Below are positions 33,501 through 39,055 of a stretch of DNA of 64,000 bases, piece after piece. How positions within the stretch are numbered: position 1 is the first letter of the stretch; the number at the start of each line of letters is the position of its first letter. Source of the stretch: Cupriavidus sp. (lineage in GTDB: Bacteria > Pseudomonadota > Gammaproteobacteria > Burkholderiales > Burkholderiaceae); the NCBI GenBank assembly GCA_031180665.1, contig JAPSLP010000001.1:295259-359258 (forward strand), written 5' to 3'. The notes under the pieces were generated by a model. That model was not told the origin of the DNA, did no database searches, and saw nothing but the letters and a program-made list of their open reading frames with translations. A program made the translations under genes and the position numbers.

Positions 33501-34264
33501 GTATCCACGATTAAGGTACGCGCTTCGAGAAAAAAGCGTACGGACGGTTCAGCCCGACGAATCGCTGCGACGGCGAAAGCCAGAACTTCGTCCGGAGAAT
33601 CGGCCGCGTAAGCAAGGCTAGCAGTAGCTTCATTGAGTCCGCGCAAAAGCTCTTCGCCTTGCGGCTCCCGACCGGCAAGCAGAACTTCCTCAACAAGAGC
33701 CGGGGAAAATCTGTTTGAGAACTCTTCCCAGAACTCATCAATGCTCCGCGCCCCTACTGAAGGCATCAGCCTCAGCTCGTATCTCGCCCAGCGGGCGGCA
33801 ACTGCTGGGCATGCGCTCAACCATTCTTCCAGCATCGCACCATCGATGTACCTGACATCCTTCCACTCTCCTTGCTCGCGCTTCGCCCGCACCCAATCTG
33901 GCAACTTCACCGTGGGGTTATCCCAAGTCCTTGGAGAAACGAAAACAAATGTCGTTTCTTTCCGCGCAGCCTCGTCAACCTGCTTTGTTCGCTTCTCGTA
34001 GTCACTGGTAGCCTTTCCGGCTGCGCCCTCAGTAACGCCGAACTCCCAGATTGACCTCCCATCCGGCACGTATGGAGGCATCCCAGCCGCTTCCAGCACG
34101 CCGTCGAAGCCCCGAACCTGCCCCTTGTCACCGCTTGGGAAGCGGATGTCGGTGATGTTCGCCGCGGTTGCTCGCACTAAGTCGGCGACCAGCGCCGGGA
34201 AACTGGTTCTAGCTTGAAGTGTATCTGCCCACTGTTGGAGGTTTGTCGCTGTGACCCAACGCAT
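30509..34264 (-). CDS. Uncharacterised 1251-aa protein: REase/Mrr-like N-terminus, degenerate STAND-like region, long helical C-terminus (candidate defence protein)
   Basis: Long clean ORF in lower-GC DNA with AAGGGG RBS. GFDG...SIWEFG...KATSDYEKR...FVFVSPR...VRYIDGAMLEEWL; no intact Walker A. Confidence 0.8.
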   Translation of the reverse strand: MRWVTATNLQQWADTLQARTSFPALVADLVRATAANITDIRFPSGDKGQVRGFDGVLEAAGMPPYVPDGRSIWEFGVTEGAAGKATSDYEKRTKQVDEAARKETTFVFVSPRTWDNPTVKLPDWVRAKREQGEWKDVRYIDGAMLEEWLSACPAVAARWARYELRLMPSVGARSIDEFWEEFSNRFSPALVEEVLLAGREPQGEELLRGLNEATASLAYAADSPDEVLAFAVAAIRRAEPSVRFFLEARTLIVDTEEAARALVGKKGLIFLPRGQARGFAGLLSQYGPTIVSAGADERRSTHVLLNRPHSSALGKAFVAMGFTEEQGYEIARHCGRSLAVLARQRPSGTAERPEWMDRAEPLLPALFAGAWATSSDSDRAILCTLARCAEYEMVEAPLRQLAKLKDPPVDHVGDVWTMRSSVDAFVHLGHLIGPEHLRQFSAAATKVFSYIPPAPKEDDLFRPRSERQDTHSSWLREGMMTMLLHMAVLHKQADFTVQGSTPQEFVNGIVRGLPGLSNDYRLLASLQDNLALLAEAAPIPFLEALERLLEGDPAAIKPIFDEHRGFLTPQTYHVGLLWALETLAWDRKLLLRSAMCLARLAAVDPGGSLSNRPINSLRAIFLSWSPNTSARAKQRTAVLAHIVKAVPAIAWPLLTKLLPRSHDTSSPTATPKFREFGDAEEEALTYGVVWESQTAVVRLALEHVGQDPERWATLIGAMSEFPAESLDSMLSALDTVLAEVTSGIRFPIWDALRREANRHRTFADTDWALRPDALTRVDAVIEKFKPDDPLLQHIWLFDDWLPTVPGLGATSGDPMAPVEVARCEAIQAIAASSGPQGLIDLAKRVKLPHSVAVAAQALRLPREQLATLLRLAVEAGDGLDVASATIIAEGLTRFGDSFAIDVQDIVAAFEVEPSRTARLLTALDENMRAWEVVSSFGREVNEAFWAQKHSYSIKGNTEELFFAIENYASRGRPMAAIETAVGRLKEVKSETLLHLLDSAILEINTSGGRGGTMTAYYLEQVFEELETRNDVASEELAKREFTYLPIFGRRKKPLTLHRLMVERAGWFMDAICAVFKAANTEGREVSENERRLAVAAYDLLGSLQLLPGQVGNDVDGKILLQWCGEVRDLAKEMDRVDVTDSRIGHLLAHAPASQLDGAWPHEAVRHAIECIASDELENGLAVERFNMRGVYSKGIGEGGDQERELAKQARDWAAATHEFPRTSAMLMRVSEGWMRDAERADVEAAKQSLRL

Positions 34265-34437
34265 CTAACGTCCCCTTATTGTTAAAAACGCAAACTTGCA
34301 AGCCCGAGGGTCCCGCCGATTACCTGTGCGGTTCCGCGGACTGCAAGAAACCCCTTGATACCGTTAGCTTCGCCAGATGCATTTGGGGCTCCCCGTTGCT
34401 CGCGGTTCTTGCCGACCTTCTTGTGTCAGTCGACATG

Positions 34438-36684
34438 TTACAGGGCCGGATTTGCTTCCTCGACCGCCTTTTGCACATCTGATATCGCCGACGTGAGAAG
34501 TGACTTGACCTCTTCCATAAATTCGAGCGCAGAAGCATCACCACGCGCATCGGGTACCGGAATCCATCGCTCGTAAATCCCCTCCACTCGCATTTTGCGG
34601 TCAAATGTGCTTCCCGTCCCTCGCAACGCATACGCACCAAGCCAAATTGGCTGCGGCAGTTCACGCAGACGCCGGTGGCTCAGCTTGGGCAATTGTTGTG
34701 CGACCGCCGCCTTGACTCGGTCAATGGTTTCACGTTTTTGCTCGGGCGTCGGATTGCCCGACCAGGCAATGGGACTCTCGAGAAATCTGGATAGGGACGA
34801 CGAAAGCGCAGCAATAAGATTAGAAGTTGGCTGAAGCACAAAGCCATCGTCCCAGCCTTCCGCGTAGCGTCGCGTCAGTGCCTTCACAGTCTGCCAAGGA
34901 CGCGGTTTGAAATGCGGATGCGGCGACAAGCCAAGTAGACCCTGCCATTGTTGGCGAAAATCACGTGCGGCCTCTTGGATTGCAAGAACGAGGTTGTCCA
35001 TGCTGTACTGCGGGAATGCGACTGGCTCAAACACCGGCGGTTGTGCGGCCACCAGCATTGCGAGCAACCTATTCAGTTCAGGCTTTGCCGGCTTCGGGTC
35101 GAGCTCATGAATTTTGCCGACGTAAAACGTGTTGCGCTCGAGGTGTTCCAACAGATAGCGCGCGGCGTCCCCGGAGACATTCTTGGCCAACTGATTCTCG
35201 GCAATATTGCGCAGGCCGCCGAAGACATGGTCTAGCTTCGCCTGCCCCCTGAGGTTATCGCCCCGGACCGTGTCCATATGTGTGAAGACTACGGCAAGCT
35301 TACGCGTGTAGCCCGAGTTCACGACGCTTTCGAGAGCCTTGCCTGCGGCGAAGCTGGTCATTCCGTTCTTCGCGCTATCAACCAGCAGTACAACGTCCGC
35401 GTCGTGGAGTAGCGACAAGACTCCCTCCGGTAGGTCGGCCGTCGCGTTTGCCTTGTGCCCCAAGCCTTCTGTGTCGACCAAAACAAGCCGGGGCTTATCT
35501 TCCGCCCATATTGGCCGAAAGGGGCCTGCTACCCTCAGACCCGTCACCAGCGGAGTGAGCAGTTTGCCAAATGCCTGATAAGCATTGCCCGAGAATAGGC
35601 GGACCAACCGCAGAAACGCCTCCCGCCCGTCCGCACCTGACTTGAGATGCCATGCGGTCGGCCAGCCCGTGGTGGTCTTTTCAAAGCGACCGACAGAAAC
35701 GCCTTCGAATTTGGTCTTGACCTCATCCAGCACGTCCGAGACCAATTCAAGATAGGCATCTGAACTGACGGCCTGCTCCTCGATCAGGTCGAGTGCCACG
35801 CCACGGTCCTCGGCATTCATGTCAGCAATCACGCCGTGGGCAGCCTCAACTTCCGCCTTGGCGGAAATGGCAAGCGACTGAATGCGCGTTAGAAAGCCCT
35901 CAAGCGTCTGCTGCAACGTAGCATGTTCGTCCGGAAGCAACGTGGGGGCGTCGTCCGAGTCGGTCGCCGCTTCTTCGTCGACATCCTCATAAGGGTCAAT
36001 GTCGCCATCATCGTCGAGGTCTCCTAGCAGATACTTGAGCCGGAAGCGCATATCGCTCTTTTCCAGGAACGCTCGCGCAACCTGCCGTGTATCGCCTTGC
36101 ACGGCCTCAACAATGGCAGCGGAAATCGACTCCTCTATCTCGAAGCGAGCTTCATGTTCCGACATGAACGTGACAACGGCTTCATACTCGCCGTCGCGCA
36201 GCACCAATTCGGAGGGAAACGTAGTAGTGCGATTAACCGAGGTCGACGGAAACCGCTCGGTCTTCGGATTCGTACCCATCAGCTGTCGCACAAGGGTGGT
36301 CTTTCCTGCCCCCGGCGCGCCCATCAGCACGACACGCGCATATCCTTCGGCACTCGTTGGCAATGGCAATAGCTTGTCGCAGAGCTGCCGCGCCGTTGTC
36401 ACGCGAGGCTCAATCTCGCTATAGAAGATGTCGACAACGCGGGGGTCAAAGCGCCGGGCGGCTTCGCCGCGGGCACCCAGCGACCACAACGCCTCGTCCC
36501 TCAGTAGTTCGTTGAGTTCGCTGACGAGTCGTTGTGCGAGCGCCTCATCTTCGGTTCCAAGCCCCTTGCGAGTTTTCTTGCCTGGCCGGTTGCTCGTGTC
36601 GCTTTTGAGCGGATGCCGGAATTCCACCAACCAGCCCTTTCGTCCTGGATTGCGCTTTGCGGCTGCCGTGTAGGGACCCGCCAT
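34438..36684 (-). CDS. Dynamin-like GTPase with N-terminal integrase-arm-like DNA-binding domain (candidate defence protein)
   Basis: G1 GAPGAGKTT, G2 STSVNRTTT, G3 DTEG, G4 THMD; N-terminal GWLVEFRHP...GKKTRKGLGTEDEALA; GGAG RBS before ATG 36684. Confidence 0.8.
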   Translation of the reverse strand: MAGPYTAAAKRNPGRKGWLVEFRHPLKSDTSNRPGKKTRKGLGTEDEALAQRLVSELNELLRDEALWSLGARGEAARRFDPRVVDIFYSEIEPRVTTARQLCDKLLPLPTSAEGYARVVLMGAPGAGKTTLVRQLMGTNPKTERFPSTSVNRTTTFPSELVLRDGEYEAVVTFMSEHEARFEIEESISAAIVEAVQGDTRQVARAFLEKSDMRFRLKYLLGDLDDDGDIDPYEDVDEEAATDSDDAPTLLPDEHATLQQTLEGFLTRIQSLAISAKAEVEAAHGVIADMNAEDRGVALDLIEEQAVSSDAYLELVSDVLDEVKTKFEGVSVGRFEKTTTGWPTAWHLKSGADGREAFLRLVRLFSGNAYQAFGKLLTPLVTGLRVAGPFRPIWAEDKPRLVLVDTEGLGHKANATADLPEGVLSLLHDADVVLLVDSAKNGMTSFAAGKALESVVNSGYTRKLAVVFTHMDTVRGDNLRGQAKLDHVFGGLRNIAENQLAKNVSGDAARYLLEHLERNTFYVGKIHELDPKPAKPELNRLLAMLVAAQPPVFEPVAFPQYSMDNLVLAIQEAARDFRQQWQGLLGLSPHPHFKPRPWQTVKALTRRYAEGWDDGFVLQPTSNLIAALSSSLSRFLESPIAWSGNPTPEQKRETIDRVKAAVAQQLPKLSHRRLRELPQPIWLGAYALRGTGSTFDRKMRVEGIYERWIPVPDARGDASALEFMEEVKSLLTSAISDVQKAVEEANPAL

Positions 36685-36694
36685 GTTATTCTCC

Positions 36695-36789
36695 AATGTT
36701 CCAGAATGTTCCACAAACTCTGCTTGAGCCTAATAATAACGCGGCCAGCCGAAATGTCAACGAATTTGCGGAACATCATGGAACATCAT
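36695..36789 (-). promoter_or_regulatory. Sigma70-type promoter of the GTPase gene flanked by inverted tandem GGAACAT repeats
   Basis: -35 TTGACA (36760-36755), 16-bp spacer, -10 TATTAT (36738-36733); AATGTTCCA twice at 36695 and 36705; GGAACATCAT twice at 36770 and 36780. Confidence 0.65.
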
Positions 36790-36856
36790 TCAGGTCGTCG
36801 GTGTCAGAAACCAGAGGACCTTTGGAGAGAAGCTTGACTGCGACAGACTCGGGGAA

Positions 36857-38622
36857 TCACGGTACGAGGGGCATGCGGCTTGACGACCCGATTCCATCGG
36901 AGAATGCCTCCCCGATTTGCCGTGCCCGCTTCACTTCATCGCTGTGCAAATATACGGAAGTTGTGGACACCGACGCATGTCGCAGATTGTCCCGAACACT
37001 GGTCAATTCCACGCCTCGGCCTAGAGCATGCGTGGCATGCGTATGCCGCATCCAGTGCGGACTGGCCCGGCGCAGCTTATCCGCCGCCGCGGGATGGTCC
37101 GCACCAATGACCTCCGCGGCCAGCTTGAAGAACCGCTTCACCACATGCCATAGCCGCGTACTGGTGATGCCGATATCCGGCTCGCCGGTCAGGTCACCGA
37201 CCAGGGCAATCTCCGGGCGCCACAGCCTCCGGCTGATCGGCAGCCCGCGTTCCGTCAGATGGCACTCCAACGCCCGCCGCGCCAACGGCGGCAATGCCAC
37301 CTTGCCGCTGCGCCCGCCCTTCCCTGTCAACTTGAGCCATTCGTCCCCCTGTCCGTCGGTCTCGATATCGCCGAGCCTTGCCGCGATCAATTCGCTAGCC
37401 CGCAGTCCGGTGGCATAGCCGAAATCCAGCACAAAGCGCAGGCGCTGCGCGGCGGCCTCCTCCCAACCGTAGGACCACTCCAGCCCGTCGGCGATGGTCC
37501 GCACCAGCTTCCATTCGCCTTCGGTGAAGGCGCGTGAATTGTCCAGCGCCGCCGTGCGGCCACCGCCGCGGACCTTGATGCCCGCGAACGGATTGGCGAG
37601 GACGTACCGCTGCTGCACCAGCCAGCGGAACATCGCACCAAGAATCGAGAGCGCATGGGCGACCGAGCGTGCCGATAGTGCGCCGCTGAATGGCCGCCAG
37701 TCCGGCGACGAACGCGGGCGTGGCGGACCGACCCACCGCTCGCGCGGCGTGGGCCGACGCAGGAAGGCGCGATAGGCGACGGCGTCCTCGGTGGTCAGCG
37801 ACGACAACGGCCGTTGCCGCTCGACGATCGCCCACAGGATCAGCCGTTCCGCTTCCTTGCGGTAGGTGCGATGGGTGGCGGGCGATTCGTGCAGCGCCAG
37901 CCAGCCCTGCACCGCCTCGTAGTCGTTGTCCGCGGTCAACGTGCAACTCTCACGCGGCGCGCGAAACCGCCCTCGCGAGCCGTCCACTTGATAAGGCAGG
38001 CGCAACTGCTCCCATGGCACGACGACACTGCGCCGCTCCTGCACGATCAGCGCGCGTGCGCGCTCGGTCAATTCGGGATGCGCGGCGAAGAACGCCTCGA
38101 TCTGCCTGGCGCTCGTGGCGCCCAGCCTCGGGATGGCCGTCCACCAGCGGCGGCGCCTGGGCACGCGCACGGTCAGCGCCGCGAGCGTATCGATACCGTG
38201 GGCGCGCAAGGCGGCGACGGCGCGCGCCGGTAGCCAGCGACCGATGTCGTCGGTGATCGCGGGCCGCGGCGGCGGGAGCGTGCGCAAGACCTCAATGGCA
38301 CGGCCGGCAGCCCTGCCCTGCTCCACCCGCTCGGACGCCGGCATCTCGAACAATGCGGCCAGATCTTCGCGGCCGCGCTCGCGTGCGAGCGAAGCAAGCC
38401 GGCGGCGAATGCGGCCAAGCACGGCGCGCGAGATTGGCCGCGCGCCCTCTCCTCACCCAGGTATTGCGCCACGGCTTGCCGGGAGCTAAGGCCGGCATGC
38501 CAGGCGCGCAGCGCGGCCAGGGAGGCGGCATCGGGGAATGCCGTGGAAGCATCGGCGGAGGACGTATCCATACCCGTGCTGGAGGCGGAGGCGGAGTCCG
38601 GTAGGGTCAGTCGCGCTTTCAT
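36857..38622 (-). pseudogene. Tyrosine recombinase (DUF3701-type phage integrase family) with a 1-bp deletion near 38432
   Basis: N-part FPDAASLAALRAWHAGL...GQS joins RAVLGRIRRRL in another frame. Catalytic GLRASEL, GKGG, HWMRHT, LRHASV, TTSVY are intact. Confidence 0.85.
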
Positions 38623-38649
38623 GGGCGCCAGTTTAGCGCATCGAAATGG

Positions 38650-38679
38650 CTATTACGATAAGGATACTTATCGTAATAG
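38650..38679. other. Perfect palindromic recombinase core site (11-bp arms, 6-bp spacer)
   Basis: CTATTACGATAA-GGATAC-TTATCGTAATAG, 28 bp upstream of the recombinase start. Confidence 0.7.
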
Positions 38680-38700
38680 AAGTGCCAAATTGATAAGTAG

Positions 38701-38961
38701 CTACGGCTCGGCGTACCAACTCTGTGGCCATCCCGGAATGAGAAGGATCGGATCGCCCTTTGCATCCGTTCCGCCTTCCACGAAATGCAGCCTGACGCCG
38801 TTCACGAGCGCAACGCCGTGATCAAGCGTTGCATGGACAGCGGCTGCGTCCGCTCCGGAAGGAAAACGGCCGGCTGCGGCCGAAGCTGAAGCTGTAGCGA
38901 TGCCGGCGGCCGCGCAGGCCGCGAGCAAGGAACGGAACAATCCGGACTTGGGGTACGACAT
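38701..38961 (-). pseudogene. Truncated alpha/beta hydrolase (N-terminal fragment only)
   Basis: Signal-like start, VNGVRLHFVEGG...PILLIPGWPQSWYA, then an abrupt stop at the recombinase-site region. Confidence 0.75.
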
Positions 38962-39055
38962 GATGATCCTTTGTTGTTTGAAGAGAAGCGCTGTACCAAT
39001 CGGGCCGCTAACAGCAATATTTAGGACCGAATCGGTTCCCAAATAGGGAAAAAAA

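What the first reader, a model, noticed from the sequence alone, without database searches (positions are those of the whole stretch)
36695..36789. GTPase promoter is bracketed by two inverted pairs of 10-bp-phased GGAACAT repeats
Seen: AATGTTCCA twice (36695-36703, 36705-36713) just upstream of the RBS, and GGAACATCAT twice (36770-36789) just upstream of the -35. The two pairs are inverted relative to each other and enclose TTGACA-N16-TATTAT. Established: integrase arm domains bind short direct repeats spaced about one helical turn apart. Inference: these are the sites for the GTPase's own arm-like domain, giving autorepression or DNA looping that could be released on infection. They could instead be arm sites for the neighbouring recombinase.
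Basis: partly seen in the sequence, partly recalled or inferred. Interest (0 to 1): 0.7.

Follow-up and report, generated by a model that had tools for sequence, protein, structure and literature searches.

The report
Self-operator of a solitary GTPase gene
Four 8-bp repeats bracketing the promoter of an uncharacterised 748-residue GTPase gene are a conserved operator that travels and co-varies with the protein's own small N-terminal domain, so the protein most likely controls (probably represses) its own transcription; the neighbouring recombinase has nothing to do with them.

Summary
On the - strand, GATGTTCC-NN-GATGTTCC (36770-36787) lies 9 bp upstream of TTGACA-N16-TATTAT. GGAACATT-NN-GGAACATT (36695-36712) lies between the -10 and the RBS of the GTPase gene (34438-36684).

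All 18 independently fetched homologues that keep the N-terminal domain have the same layout, at 33-79% protein identity. They come from Alpha-, Beta- and Gammaproteobacteria, Chloroflexota, plasmids and one viral contig, in unrelated gene neighbourhoods.

- Half-site positions carry 1.7-2.0 bits of information; flanks and spacers carry 0-0.3 bits.
- Half-site variants (TGTGCC, GTTGTTCC, GTTGTACC) change in concert at all four sites. They follow the protein clade, not the host.
- Three Rhodococcus plasmid homologues lack the N-domain and lack the repeats.
- 24 loci with homologues of the neighbouring recombinase have neither the repeats nor the GTPase.

The N-domain is predicted as a three-stranded sheet plus a helix. 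It shows only weak similarity to an integrase N-terminal domain (DUF6538), so "arm-like" remains inconclusive.

Best reading: a self-contained autoregulatory module, probably repressive, because the proximal pair covers the transcription start in most relatives. Binding and the direction of regulation are inferred, not shown. It is a new variant of a known kind and moderately interesting.

The parts
36780..36787 (-). Distal outer half-site D1, GATGTTCC
   Evidence: GATGTTCC at this position in 40 of 46 unique operator versions, but most of those were found with a pattern that fixed ATGTTCC here; among 18 protein-found loci 11 have GATGTTCC and 7 a clade variant. About 1.7-2.0 bits per position in the pooled set.
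36770..36777 (-). Distal inner half-site D2, GATGTTCC, 10-bp phase with D1, 9 bp upstream of the -35
   Evidence: The gap to the -35 is 7-9 bp in 39 of 40 relatives.
36755..36760 (-). -35 hexamer TTGACA
   Evidence: TTGAC was part of the scan pattern, so its presence in pattern-found loci is circular; TTGAC is present in all 18 protein-found loci.
36733..36738 (-). -10 hexamer TATTAT, 16-nt spacer
   Evidence: 11 of 12 consensus positions. TAnnnT-like hexamers at 16-18 nt in relatives.
36705..36712 (-). Proximal inner half-site P1, GGAACATT. Begins 20 nt after the -10, against 0-3 nt in most relatives
36695..36702 (-). Proximal outer half-site P2, GGAACATT, directly abutting the RBS
   Evidence: GGAACATC in 35 of 46 relatives.
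36689..36694 (-). Ribosome-binding site GGAGAA
   Evidence: A GGAG-type RBS follows P2 in most relatives.
36484..36684 (-). Codons 1-67 of the GTPase: the N-terminal domain and proposed operator-binding module
   Evidence: AlphaFold2 model: strands 7-11, 18-28 and 34-41, helix 47-62, pLDDT 89. Invariant G14 R15 F22 R23 H24 P25 L26 G35 K37 G41 L42 G43. Profile finds only 323 proteins among 1.84 billion representatives; nearly all of the 148 examined are this family.
34438..36684 (-). GTPase gene, 748 aa (P0003)
   Evidence: MMR_HSR1 31.5 bits at the P-loop; Dynamin_N 25.4 bits, below its cut-off. 1,682 or more relatives of about 750 aa.

Best explanation
The four 8-bp repeats are the operator of the GTPase gene's own sigma-70-type promoter. 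They are read by the protein's own N-terminal ~65-residue domain, a three-stranded sheet plus a helix rich in invariant Arg/Lys/His.

Shown:
- The layout is [GATGTTCC-NN-GRTGTTCC]-7 to 9 bp-TTGACA-16 to 18 bp-(-10)-[GGMACAYC-NN-GGAACATC]-RBS-ATG.
- It is conserved wherever a homologue keeps the N-domain, absent where the N-domain is absent, and independent of neighbouring genes.
- Half-site variants change in concert and follow the protein clade.

Inferred:
- Each tandem pair takes two N-domains head to tail, one helical turn apart. The two pairs face each other across the promoter, so up to four protomers could be engaged if one N-domain reads one half-site.
- In most relatives the proximal pair covers about -6 to +12. 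In this window it covers about +14 to +31. Occupancy should therefore block RNA polymerase or promoter escape, holding the solitary, possibly toxic, defence-island GTPase at a low self-limited level.
- The distal pair, at about -60 to -44, would add cooperativity or interfere with upstream promoter contacts.

Speculative: nucleotide-dependent oligomerisation of the GTPase may link its activity state to promoter occupancy.
For: 1. All 18 protein-found loci with the N-domain have the operator. These are the window, L003-L008, L009, L010 and L012, L141, L142-L144 and the plasmid loci L145-L148.

2. A metagenome scan for the distal pair plus TTGAC returned 127 matches. 43 have a GTPase homologue starting 83-117 nt downstream (one, L114, is only a C-terminal remnant). 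Every version with at least 120 nt of upstream sequence, 42 unique, also has the proximal inverted pair, which the search pattern did not include.

3. In 46 unique versions the half-site positions carry about 1.7-2.0 bits; flanks and the NN spacers carry 0-0.3 bits.

4. Neighbouring genes differ: AbiEii, HEPN_AbiU2/HigB, type IV secretion genes, methyltransferase/helicase genes, prophage-like genes, housekeeping genes. The GTPase is the only constant gene.

5. In L146 the operator sits in front of a DUF4258 gene that precedes the GTPase by 42 bp. It marks the likely shared promoter (co-transcription assumed from the 42-bp gap), not the gene's 5' end.

6. Rhodococcus plasmid homologues L149-L151 have no N-domain (no profile hit in six frames). 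They lie inside apparent operons and have no such repeats in about 1.9 kb upstream.

7. Concerted variation:
- L007 and L141 have TGTGCC at all four sites and share a two-residue insertion in the N-domain.
- L146, L147 and L148 have T at half-site position 2 in 12 of 13 sites, and they alone replace the otherwise invariant N12.
- The variant follows the protein clade, not the host. Mesorhizobium (GATGTTCC) differs from Bradyrhizobium (GTTGTACC); Cupriavidus (GATGTTCC) differs from Caballeronia (GTTGTTCC).

8. The proximal pair begins 0-3 nt after the -10 in 29 of 40 versions, a classical repressor position.

9. Precedent: the KplE1 integrase IntS represses its own promoter through arm-type sites that overlap it (PMC2951348).

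10. No other tandem site exists in the host assembly, so the promoter is the only such tandem target in the assembly.
Against: - No binding or expression data.
- The N-domain has no significant match to any solved DNA-binding domain (Foldseek against PDB, best E 0.24-0.25). Its similarity to integrase N-domains is weak: Pfam DUF6538 E 0.1-0.2 in 3 of 7 members; hhalign 63% probability; BFVD integrases E 0.06-0.2.
- The same N-domain tolerates GGAACA, GGCACA and GCCACA at the inner proximal site. L142 and L143 have near-identical domains but different sites. There is therefore no simple recognition code.
- The N-domain-less clade is one lineage, so it counts as a single independent observation.
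- Pair-to-pair spacing is not quantised by helical turns (45-74 bp). This weakens any rigid looping model.
- In this window the proximal pair lies 20 nt downstream of the -10, so simple occlusion of the promoter is less obvious here.
- Distal-pair conservation in the pattern-found loci is circular, because it was the search pattern. Only the 18 protein-found loci count for it.
Confidence: 0.7

Rival explanations
1. The GTPase's N-domain binds the repeats but the net effect is activation or a mixed switch. The distal pair at about -60 to -44 would recruit RNA polymerase, giving positive feedback rather than homeostatic repression.
For: - The distal pair sits 7-9 bp upstream of the -35 in 39 of 40 versions, where class I activators and the alpha-subunit C-terminal domain act.
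- An A-rich tract follows it (consensus CCAaAa).
- In this window and in L092 the proximal pair is displaced to +14 or beyond, so it does not cover the start site.
Against: - The -35 and -10 hexamers are already near consensus (11 of 12 in the window), so an activator seems unnecessary.
- In 29 of 40 versions the proximal pair starts 0-3 nt after the -10 and covers the start site.
- The strongest and best-conserved half-sites are the two outer ones (D1 and P2). That fits a clamp around the promoter.
Confidence: 0.12
2. The repeats are bound by a factor that is not the GTPase, such as a host global regulator or a LexA-like SOS repressor. The N-domain would then do something else.
For: - Direct GTTC repeats recall the alphaproteobacterial SOS box GTTC-N7-GTTC (recalled from memory, not tested here).
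- No binding data exist.
- The N-domain has no significant match to a known DNA-binding fold.
Against: - Spacing is GTTC-N6-GTTC, a strict 10-bp phase, in every version.
- The same layout occurs in Alpha-, Beta- and Gammaproteobacteria and in Chloroflexota.
- Half-site variants follow the protein clade, not the host class.
- Homologues without the N-domain lack the sites.
- No conserved neighbouring regulator gene exists.
Confidence: 0.08
3. The inverted repeat acts as a nucleic-acid structure. A long RNA hairpin would form in transcripts reading through from the recombinase gene and act as an insulator, a processing site or a translational element.
For: The 121-nt stretch folds at -44.5 kcal/mol, z = -4.5. 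No terminator-like site lies between the recombinase stop (36857) and the repeats.
Against: - The distal arm lies upstream of the -35, so it is not in the gene's own transcript.
- Across 46 versions, 57 one-sided changes break pairing, against 19 double changes and 23 wobble changes.
- The NN spacers pair at about chance level (46 of 92). Only 15 of 46 versions could pair at all 16 site positions.
- Arm separation varies from 45 to 74 nt.
- The RBS is left unpaired in the fold.
- Most relatives have no co-directional gene directly upstream.
Confidence: 0.04
4. The repeats are arm-type sites for the neighbouring DUF3701 tyrosine recombinase (36857-38422).
For: The repeats begin 67 bp downstream of the recombinase gene. 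Direct repeats at about 10-bp phase are typical of arm sites.
Against: - 24 loci with homologues of this recombinase (3 at 66-72% identity, 21 at 33-40%) have no such repeats within 1.5 kb on either side, and no GTPase.
- 15 of 18 operator-bearing loci have no recombinase next to them (next-door genes only; the neighbour was not typed in every locus).
- The three that do have recombinases of different architecture: DUF3701 (521 aa), DUF6538 (577 aa) and a 298-aa catalytic-domain-only protein.
- No further copy of the tandem lies elsewhere in the assembly, as a second att arm would require.
Confidence: 0.02

Closest known systems
Integrase arm-type sites that overlap the integrase promoter (KplE1 IntS; PMC2951348)
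   Same: Short direct repeats about one helical turn apart. They overlap or flank the -35 and -10 of the gene that encodes the protein that binds them through a small N-terminal domain. The result is negative autoregulation.
   Different: Here the protein is a P-loop GTPase, not a recombinase. There is no core site or att region. The sites form two inverted tandem pairs symmetric about the promoter. Homology of the N-domain to arm-binding domains is only weakly indicated.
Type Ia partition ATPases (P1 ParA, F SopA), from general knowledge; not tested here
   Same: A P-loop NTPase carries an N-terminal DNA-binding domain that binds repeated short motifs in its own promoter and represses it. The nucleotide state modulates operator binding.
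   Different: ParA and SopA use a helix-turn-helix domain, belong to the SIMIBI class, and work with ParB and a centromere. This protein is a solitary TRAFAC-like GTPase with a beta-sheet domain and no partner.
Autoregulated defence and toxin-antitoxin modules (type II antitoxins, AbiEi, BrxR/CapW-type regulators), from general knowledge
   Same: A horizontally mobile defence-island gene carries its own promoter-operator, so expression is set independently of the host.
   Different: In those systems the DNA-binding function lies in a separate antitoxin or regulator protein, usually HTH, RHH or WYL. Here it is fused to the presumed effector or sensor itself.
DUF6538 (PF20172), the N-terminal domain of a class of tyrosine integrases
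   Same: Shares the motif FR-x6-10-GKK-x-RxSLGTxDxxEA. hhalign gives 63% probability, E 7e-5. Pfam gives E 0.1-0.2 in 3 of 7 members.
   Different: Below every significance threshold. DUF6538 itself has no tested function, and none of the open papers searched mentions it.
Bacterial dynamin-like proteins and DO-GTPases of conflict systems (PMC7159879)
   Same: Large GTPases found in defence contexts.
   Different: Dynamin_N scores below its cut-off. DO-GTPases come as paralogue pairs with zinc ribbons and a GAP1 partner, and none of these features is present here. No PADLOC family fits.

Membership tests
Integrase arm-type site / arm-binding domain system | Short direct repeats phased about one helical turn apart | tested here: met
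   Exact 10-bp phase in both pairs in the window and in all 46 unique versions.
Integrase arm-type site / arm-binding domain system | Binding domain is an N-terminal three-stranded beta-sheet packed on a helix | tested here: met
   AlphaFold2 models: strands 7-11, 18-28 and 34-41, helix 47-62; pLDDT 84 and 89. This is predicted topology only.
Integrase arm-type site / arm-binding domain system | Significant sequence or fold similarity to a known arm-binding domain | tested here: inconclusive
   - Pfam DUF6538: E 0.1-0.2 in 3 of 7 members.
- hhalign against DUF6538 integrase N-termini: 63% probability, E 7e-5.
- Foldseek against PDB: no match with E <= 0.001 and no integrase among the top 50.
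- BFVD: three integrases among the top 10 at E 0.06-0.2.
- The HMM profile finds only 323 proteins in 1.84 billion representatives; nearly all of the 148 examined are this GTPase family.
Integrase arm-type site / arm-binding domain system | Coupled to a tyrosine-recombinase catalytic domain and a core/att site | tested here: not met
   The protein carries a GTPase, not a recombinase. The repeats do not accompany recombinase homologues (0 of 24 loci).
Negatively autoregulated promoter-operator | Operator overlaps or brackets the core promoter or the transcription start | tested here: met
   The distal pair lies 7-9 bp upstream of the -35. The proximal pair starts 0-3 nt after the -10 in 29 of 40 versions, and 20 nt after it in the window.
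Negatively autoregulated promoter-operator | The regulator is the product of the regulated gene | tested here: inconclusive
   Comparative support only: 18 of 18 loci with the N-domain have the operator; 3 of 3 without it do not; the sites vary in concert with the protein clade. No binding assay.
Negatively autoregulated promoter-operator | Expression rises when the regulator or the sites are removed | not testable with these tools
   Needs reporter fusions.
LexA/SOS box of the direct-repeat type (GTTC-N7-GTTC) | GTTC direct repeat with a 7-nt spacer, host-specific motif | tested here: not met
   The spacer is 6 nt in every version. The motif is the same across host classes and varies with the protein clade instead.
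Dynamin family (PF00350) | Dynamin_N domain above the Pfam gathering score | tested here: not met
   25.4 bits against a cut-off of 27, covering residues 394-452 only.
Known anti-phage defence systems (PADLOC-DB 2.0) | Match to a system protein model | tested here: not met
   Only mad8 at E 8.4e-4, 16.9 bits, over the P-loop region.

The most novel reading that the evidence does not exclude
The N-domain and operator pair may be an infection-responsive switch, not just a thermostat. When the GTPase is activated or sequestered, it would leave its operator and the gene would be induced in a feed-forward way. Sequestration could come from oligomerising on a phage target, or from its integrase-like N-domain being titrated by similar phased repeats on incoming phage or ICE DNA. 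In the boldest form, the integrase-like domain lets the GTPase recognise arm-type repeat arrays of invading integrative elements, and its own promoter carries a copy of that target.
Probability: 0.12. Interest if true: 0.8.

Novelty: new variant of a known kind. Interest (0 to 1): 0.55.

Why it matters
The result defines a compact, portable expression module: promoter, four-site operator and a fused DNA-reading domain. This module explains how a solitary GTPase gene can be dropped into very different genomes, plasmids and islands and still be expressed at a controlled level.

It gives an uncharacterised family of at least 1,682 clusters (90% identity) a first testable molecular activity: sequence-specific binding to GATGTTCC arrays.

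It also offers candidate specificity determinants. N12 may read half-site position 2, and the QG insertion clade pairs with TGTGCC sites. These could be tested by swap experiments.

If the N-domain really derives from an integrase arm-binding domain, this would be a case of that module being reused as a transcription-factor domain on a non-recombinase. The operator can also serve as a cheap genomic marker for finding members of the family and their promoters.

Tried and rejected
- **Foldseek.** The 110-residue and 67-residue N-domain models were searched against PDB and the 110-residue model against BFVD. Nothing was significant, so the arm-domain assignment could not be settled.
- **Helical phasing.** Pair-to-pair offsets peak at 53-54 bp (17 of 40) but span 45-74 bp, with many at 56-59. 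A rigid in-phase loop was dropped.
- **Simple recognition code.** This fails, because near-identical N-domains (L142, L143) sit next to different inner sites.
- **Pattern matches without a GTPase.** These are unrelated recurrent sequences that lack the second pair. Examples are the marine viral-contig families at L135 and L137, which lie in or beside short ORFs, and a low-complexity repeat region in L116. There is no sign of phage att sites with this motif.
- **Search of 400 genomes of the same class.** Only one further, truncated homologue was found. The gene is rare and patchy.
- **Generic 7-mer clustering.** It is not rare on its own (74 of 300 simulations) and was replaced by a geometry-specific simulation (1 of 600).
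- **Literature.** No description of this family or operator was found in the open papers searched. DO-GTPases are a different family.

Full report
**1. The observation**

Read on the - strand, the stretch 36791-36682 is ATGATGTTCC ATGATGTTCC GCAAATTCG TTGACA-N16-TATTAT-N20-GGAACATTCT GGAACATT GGAGAATAAC ATG.

The two pairs are inverted relative to each other and belong to a 25-nt imperfect inverted repeat.
- TTGACA-N16-TATTAT matches 11 of 12 consensus positions. It is the best promoter-like site in 34000-39000.
- The gene served is 34438-36684 on the - strand. It encodes a 748-residue protein (P0003) with a P-loop at 122-130 (MMR_HSR1, 31.5 bits). A weak Dynamin_N stretch scores below the Pfam cut-off, and no PADLOC family fits.
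- Upstream on the same strand lies a 521-residue tyrosine recombinase with DUF3701 and Phage_integrase domains (P0001, 36857-38422). Downstream lies a 1,251-residue protein with no Pfam match.
- G+C drops to 0.54-0.60 across 30-37 kb, against 0.65-0.70 around it.

**2. Is it more than chance?**

- Four of the window's eight GGAACAT copies lie in these 95 bp.
- The tandem ATGTTCC-N3-ATGTTCC, with up to one mismatch, occurs nowhere else in the 5.47-Mb assembly.
- Any 7-mer occurring four times within 100 nt is not rare in simulated sequence of this composition (74 of 300).
- The specific geometry is rare. A non-overlapping inverted pair of 10-bp-phased 7-mers within 150 nt appeared in 1 of 600 simulations.
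- The decisive evidence is comparative, as follows.

**3. Conservation with the gene**

The GTPase belongs to a large family. At least 1,682 clusters match, nearly all of the listed members about 750 residues long. The family is rare in any one lineage: 1-2 of 400 genomes of the same class.

I fetched homologous loci by protein only, which is unbiased with respect to the repeats.
- Six came from a species-representative genome collection (L003-L008, 48-68% identity, including a Chloroflexota MAG).
- Three came by exact look-up (L009 Cupriavidus, L010 Mesorhizobium, L012).
- One came from a viral-contig collection (L141).
- Three more were distant members (L142-L144).
- Four were plasmid copies at 33-37% identity (L145 Agrobacterium, L146 Azospirillum, L147 Bradyrhizobium, L148 Caballeronia).

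All 17, plus the window, carry the same layout: tandem pair, 7-9 bp, TTGAC(A), a -10, an inverted tandem pair, RBS and start codon.

Conversely, I scanned 241 million metagenome records for the distal pair plus TTGAC.
- The scan gave 127 matches. 43 have a GTPase homologue starting 83-117 nt downstream (one, L114, is only a C-terminal remnant).
- Every version with at least 120 nt of upstream sequence, 42 unique, also has the proximal inverted pair, which was not in the pattern.
- The remaining matches lack a second pair and are unrelated sequences, apart from four cut off by a contig end before a gene could be scored (L019, L058, L077, L118).

Over 46 unique versions the consensus is GATGTTCC-NN-GRTGTTCC ... 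GGMACAYC-NY-GGAACATC. Half-site positions carry 1.7-2.0 bits. The flanks and the two-base spacers carry 0-0.3 bits.

**4. Whose sites are they?**

Gene neighbourhoods differ from locus to locus. They include an AbiEii toxin pair, HEPN_AbiU2 plus HigB/BrnT toxins, type IV secretion genes, a methyltransferase/helicase cluster, prophage-like genes, a patatin/nucleotidyltransferase pair and plain housekeeping genes. The GTPase is the only constant gene.

A tyrosine recombinase is next door in only three loci, and the three have different architectures. In the reciprocal test, 24 loci holding homologues of the window's recombinase contain neither the repeats nor the GTPase. Three of those homologues are 66-72% identical to it. 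The recombinase-arm-site alternative is therefore rejected.

Three results tie the sites to the protein's own N-terminal domain.

- **Loss together.** Rhodococcus plasmid homologues (671-683 residues) begin at about residue 95 of the window protein. They give no hit to the N-domain profile in any frame, lie directly behind co-directional genes, and have no such repeats within about 1.9 kb upstream.
- **Promoter association.** In L146 a DUF4258 gene sits between promoter and GTPase. The operator, here with three proximal copies, lies at the promoter in front of the DUF4258 gene and not next to the GTPase start.
- **Concerted variation.**
  - L007 and L141 have TGTGCC at all four sites and share a two-residue insertion in the beta2-beta3 loop.
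  - L146-L148 have T at half-site position 2 in 12 of 13 sites, which none of the other half-sites examined shows. They are also the only loci that replace the otherwise invariant N12.
  - These variants follow the protein clade, not the host. Mesorhizobium differs from Bradyrhizobium within the Alphaproteobacteria. Cupriavidus differs from Caballeronia within the Burkholderiales.
  - A shared host factor would not produce this pattern.

**5. The N-domain**

- AlphaFold2 with 34-38 family sequences gives strands 7-11, 18-28 and 34-41 and helix 47-62, at pLDDT 84-89. This is the strand-strand-strand-helix order known for integrase arm-binding and AP2-type domains (from general knowledge).
- Invariant residues include R15, F22-R23-H24-P25-L26, K37 and G41-L42-G43.
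- Formal similarity to known domains is weak.
  - Pfam DUF6538 gives E 0.1-0.2 in 3 of 7 members.
  - hhalign against 55 DUF6538 integrase N-termini gives 63% probability, E 7e-5, over 35 columns.
  - Foldseek against PDB finds nothing.
  - Foldseek against BFVD puts three integrases in the top ten, at non-significant E-values.
- A profile search of 1.84 billion representative proteins finds only 323 hits. Nearly all of the 148 hits examined are this GTPase family or fragments of it, apart from one histidine-kinase fusion.
- 'Integrase-arm-like' is therefore a reasonable description of shape and motif, not an established membership.

**6. How it probably works**

- The proximal pair begins 0-3 nt after the -10 in 29 of 40 versions, so it spans about -6 to +12. 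That is a repressor position.
- The window and its closest relative L092 are exceptions, with the pair 19-20 nt further downstream, at about +14 to +31.
- The distal pair spans about -60 to -44.
- The outer half-sites (D1, P2) are the best conserved. The inner proximal site is often weakened to GCCACA or GGCACA.
- I infer that N-domains bind each tandem pair head to tail, and that up to four protomers clamp the promoter and repress it. This would hold a possibly harmful solitary defence-island protein at a self-limited level.
- Pair-to-pair spacing (mode 53-54 bp, range 45-74) is not locked to the helical repeat. Any bridging must pass through flexible linkers; residues 95-110 have low confidence.
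- A precedent for the logic exists. The KplE1 integrase represses its own promoter through arm-type sites that overlap it (PMC2951348).
- The closest analogues in logic are the type Ia ParA/SopA ATPases, which bind repeats in their own promoter through an N-terminal domain (general knowledge).

**7. Rivals**

- **RNA hairpin.** One would form only in read-through transcripts (-44.5 kcal/mol, z -4.5). Across versions, 57 one-sided changes break pairing against 19 double changes, the spacers pair at chance, and the distal arm lies outside the gene's own transcript.
- **LexA-type direct-repeat box.** The spacing does not fit, and the clade-specific variation argues against it.
- **Activation instead of repression.** This remains possible, mainly because of the distal pair's position and the displaced proximal pair in this window.

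**8. Novelty**

None of the open papers searched describes this family or its operator. The DO-GTPases of conflict systems are paired, carry zinc ribbons and need GAP1. The principle, autoregulation by a fused DNA-binding domain at phased repeats, is known. The combination is not: a solitary TRAFAC-like GTPase, a beta-sheet integrase-like domain, and a symmetric four-site operator that is conserved and co-varies across phyla. I rate it a new variant of a known kind, of moderate interest.

An earlier agent's note on the gene itself (e1-5258723) reached the same reading. I treated it as a lead and re-derived the evidence here.

**Limits**

- There are no binding or expression data.
- The N-domain-less clade is a single lineage.
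- Distal-pair conservation in the pattern-found loci is circular.

Noticed in passing
L146:2060-2165 (Azospirillum plasmid NZ_CP022368.1): Here the operator has three proximal copies (GGAACAAC-GC, three times). It precedes a DUF4258 gene that sits 42 bp upstream of the GTPase, so the two genes may form an operon under the same operator.
   Followed up: partly
L149-L151 (Rhodococcus plasmids), about 60 nt upstream of the first gene of each operon (L149:956, L150:948): GTPase homologues without the N-domain lie at the end of three- or four-gene operons of unknown proteins. A different 10-bp-phased repeat, GGTTTCC-N3-GGTTTC, sits upstream of the first gene and may be the operator of some other regulator.
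   Followed up: no
Protein P0351 (469 aa, from the representative library): The same N-domain (residues 4-69) is fused to a HisKA + HATPase_c histidine-kinase core instead of the GTPase. This suggests the domain is a portable module, unless the record is a chimeric assembly.
   Followed up: partly
L010:10476-14418 and L143:631-4544: The same four-gene cluster (about 340, 139, 493 [SNF2 helicase] and 336 aa, beside a DndB-like gene) lies next to the GTPase in two unrelated loci, in different arrangements. It is probably a separate defence system that shares islands with the GTPase.
   Followed up: no
L114 (metagenome contig, - strand from 1415): An intact operator and RBS are followed directly by sequence matching only residues 709-742 of the GTPase. 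This looks like a deletion remnant of the gene that has kept its promoter.
   Followed up: no
window 36675-36795, - strand: If transcription reads through from the recombinase gene, the two repeat pairs would form a 25-bp-stem hairpin (-44.5 kcal/mol, z -4.5). No terminator-like site separates the two genes.
   Followed up: partly
G664 (same genus as the window's genome): This genome has four copies of the DUF3701 tyrosine recombinase (three at 65-72% identity to P0001, one at 36%). The recombinase is therefore a multi-copy mobile-element gene in this genus, independent of the GTPase.
   Followed up: no
L141 (IMG/VR contig IMGVR_UViG_3300048574_000266): One GTPase homologue (47% identity) with a complete TGTGCC-type operator lies on a contig classified as viral. 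This was the only protein match in 2.9 million viral contigs.
   Followed up: no
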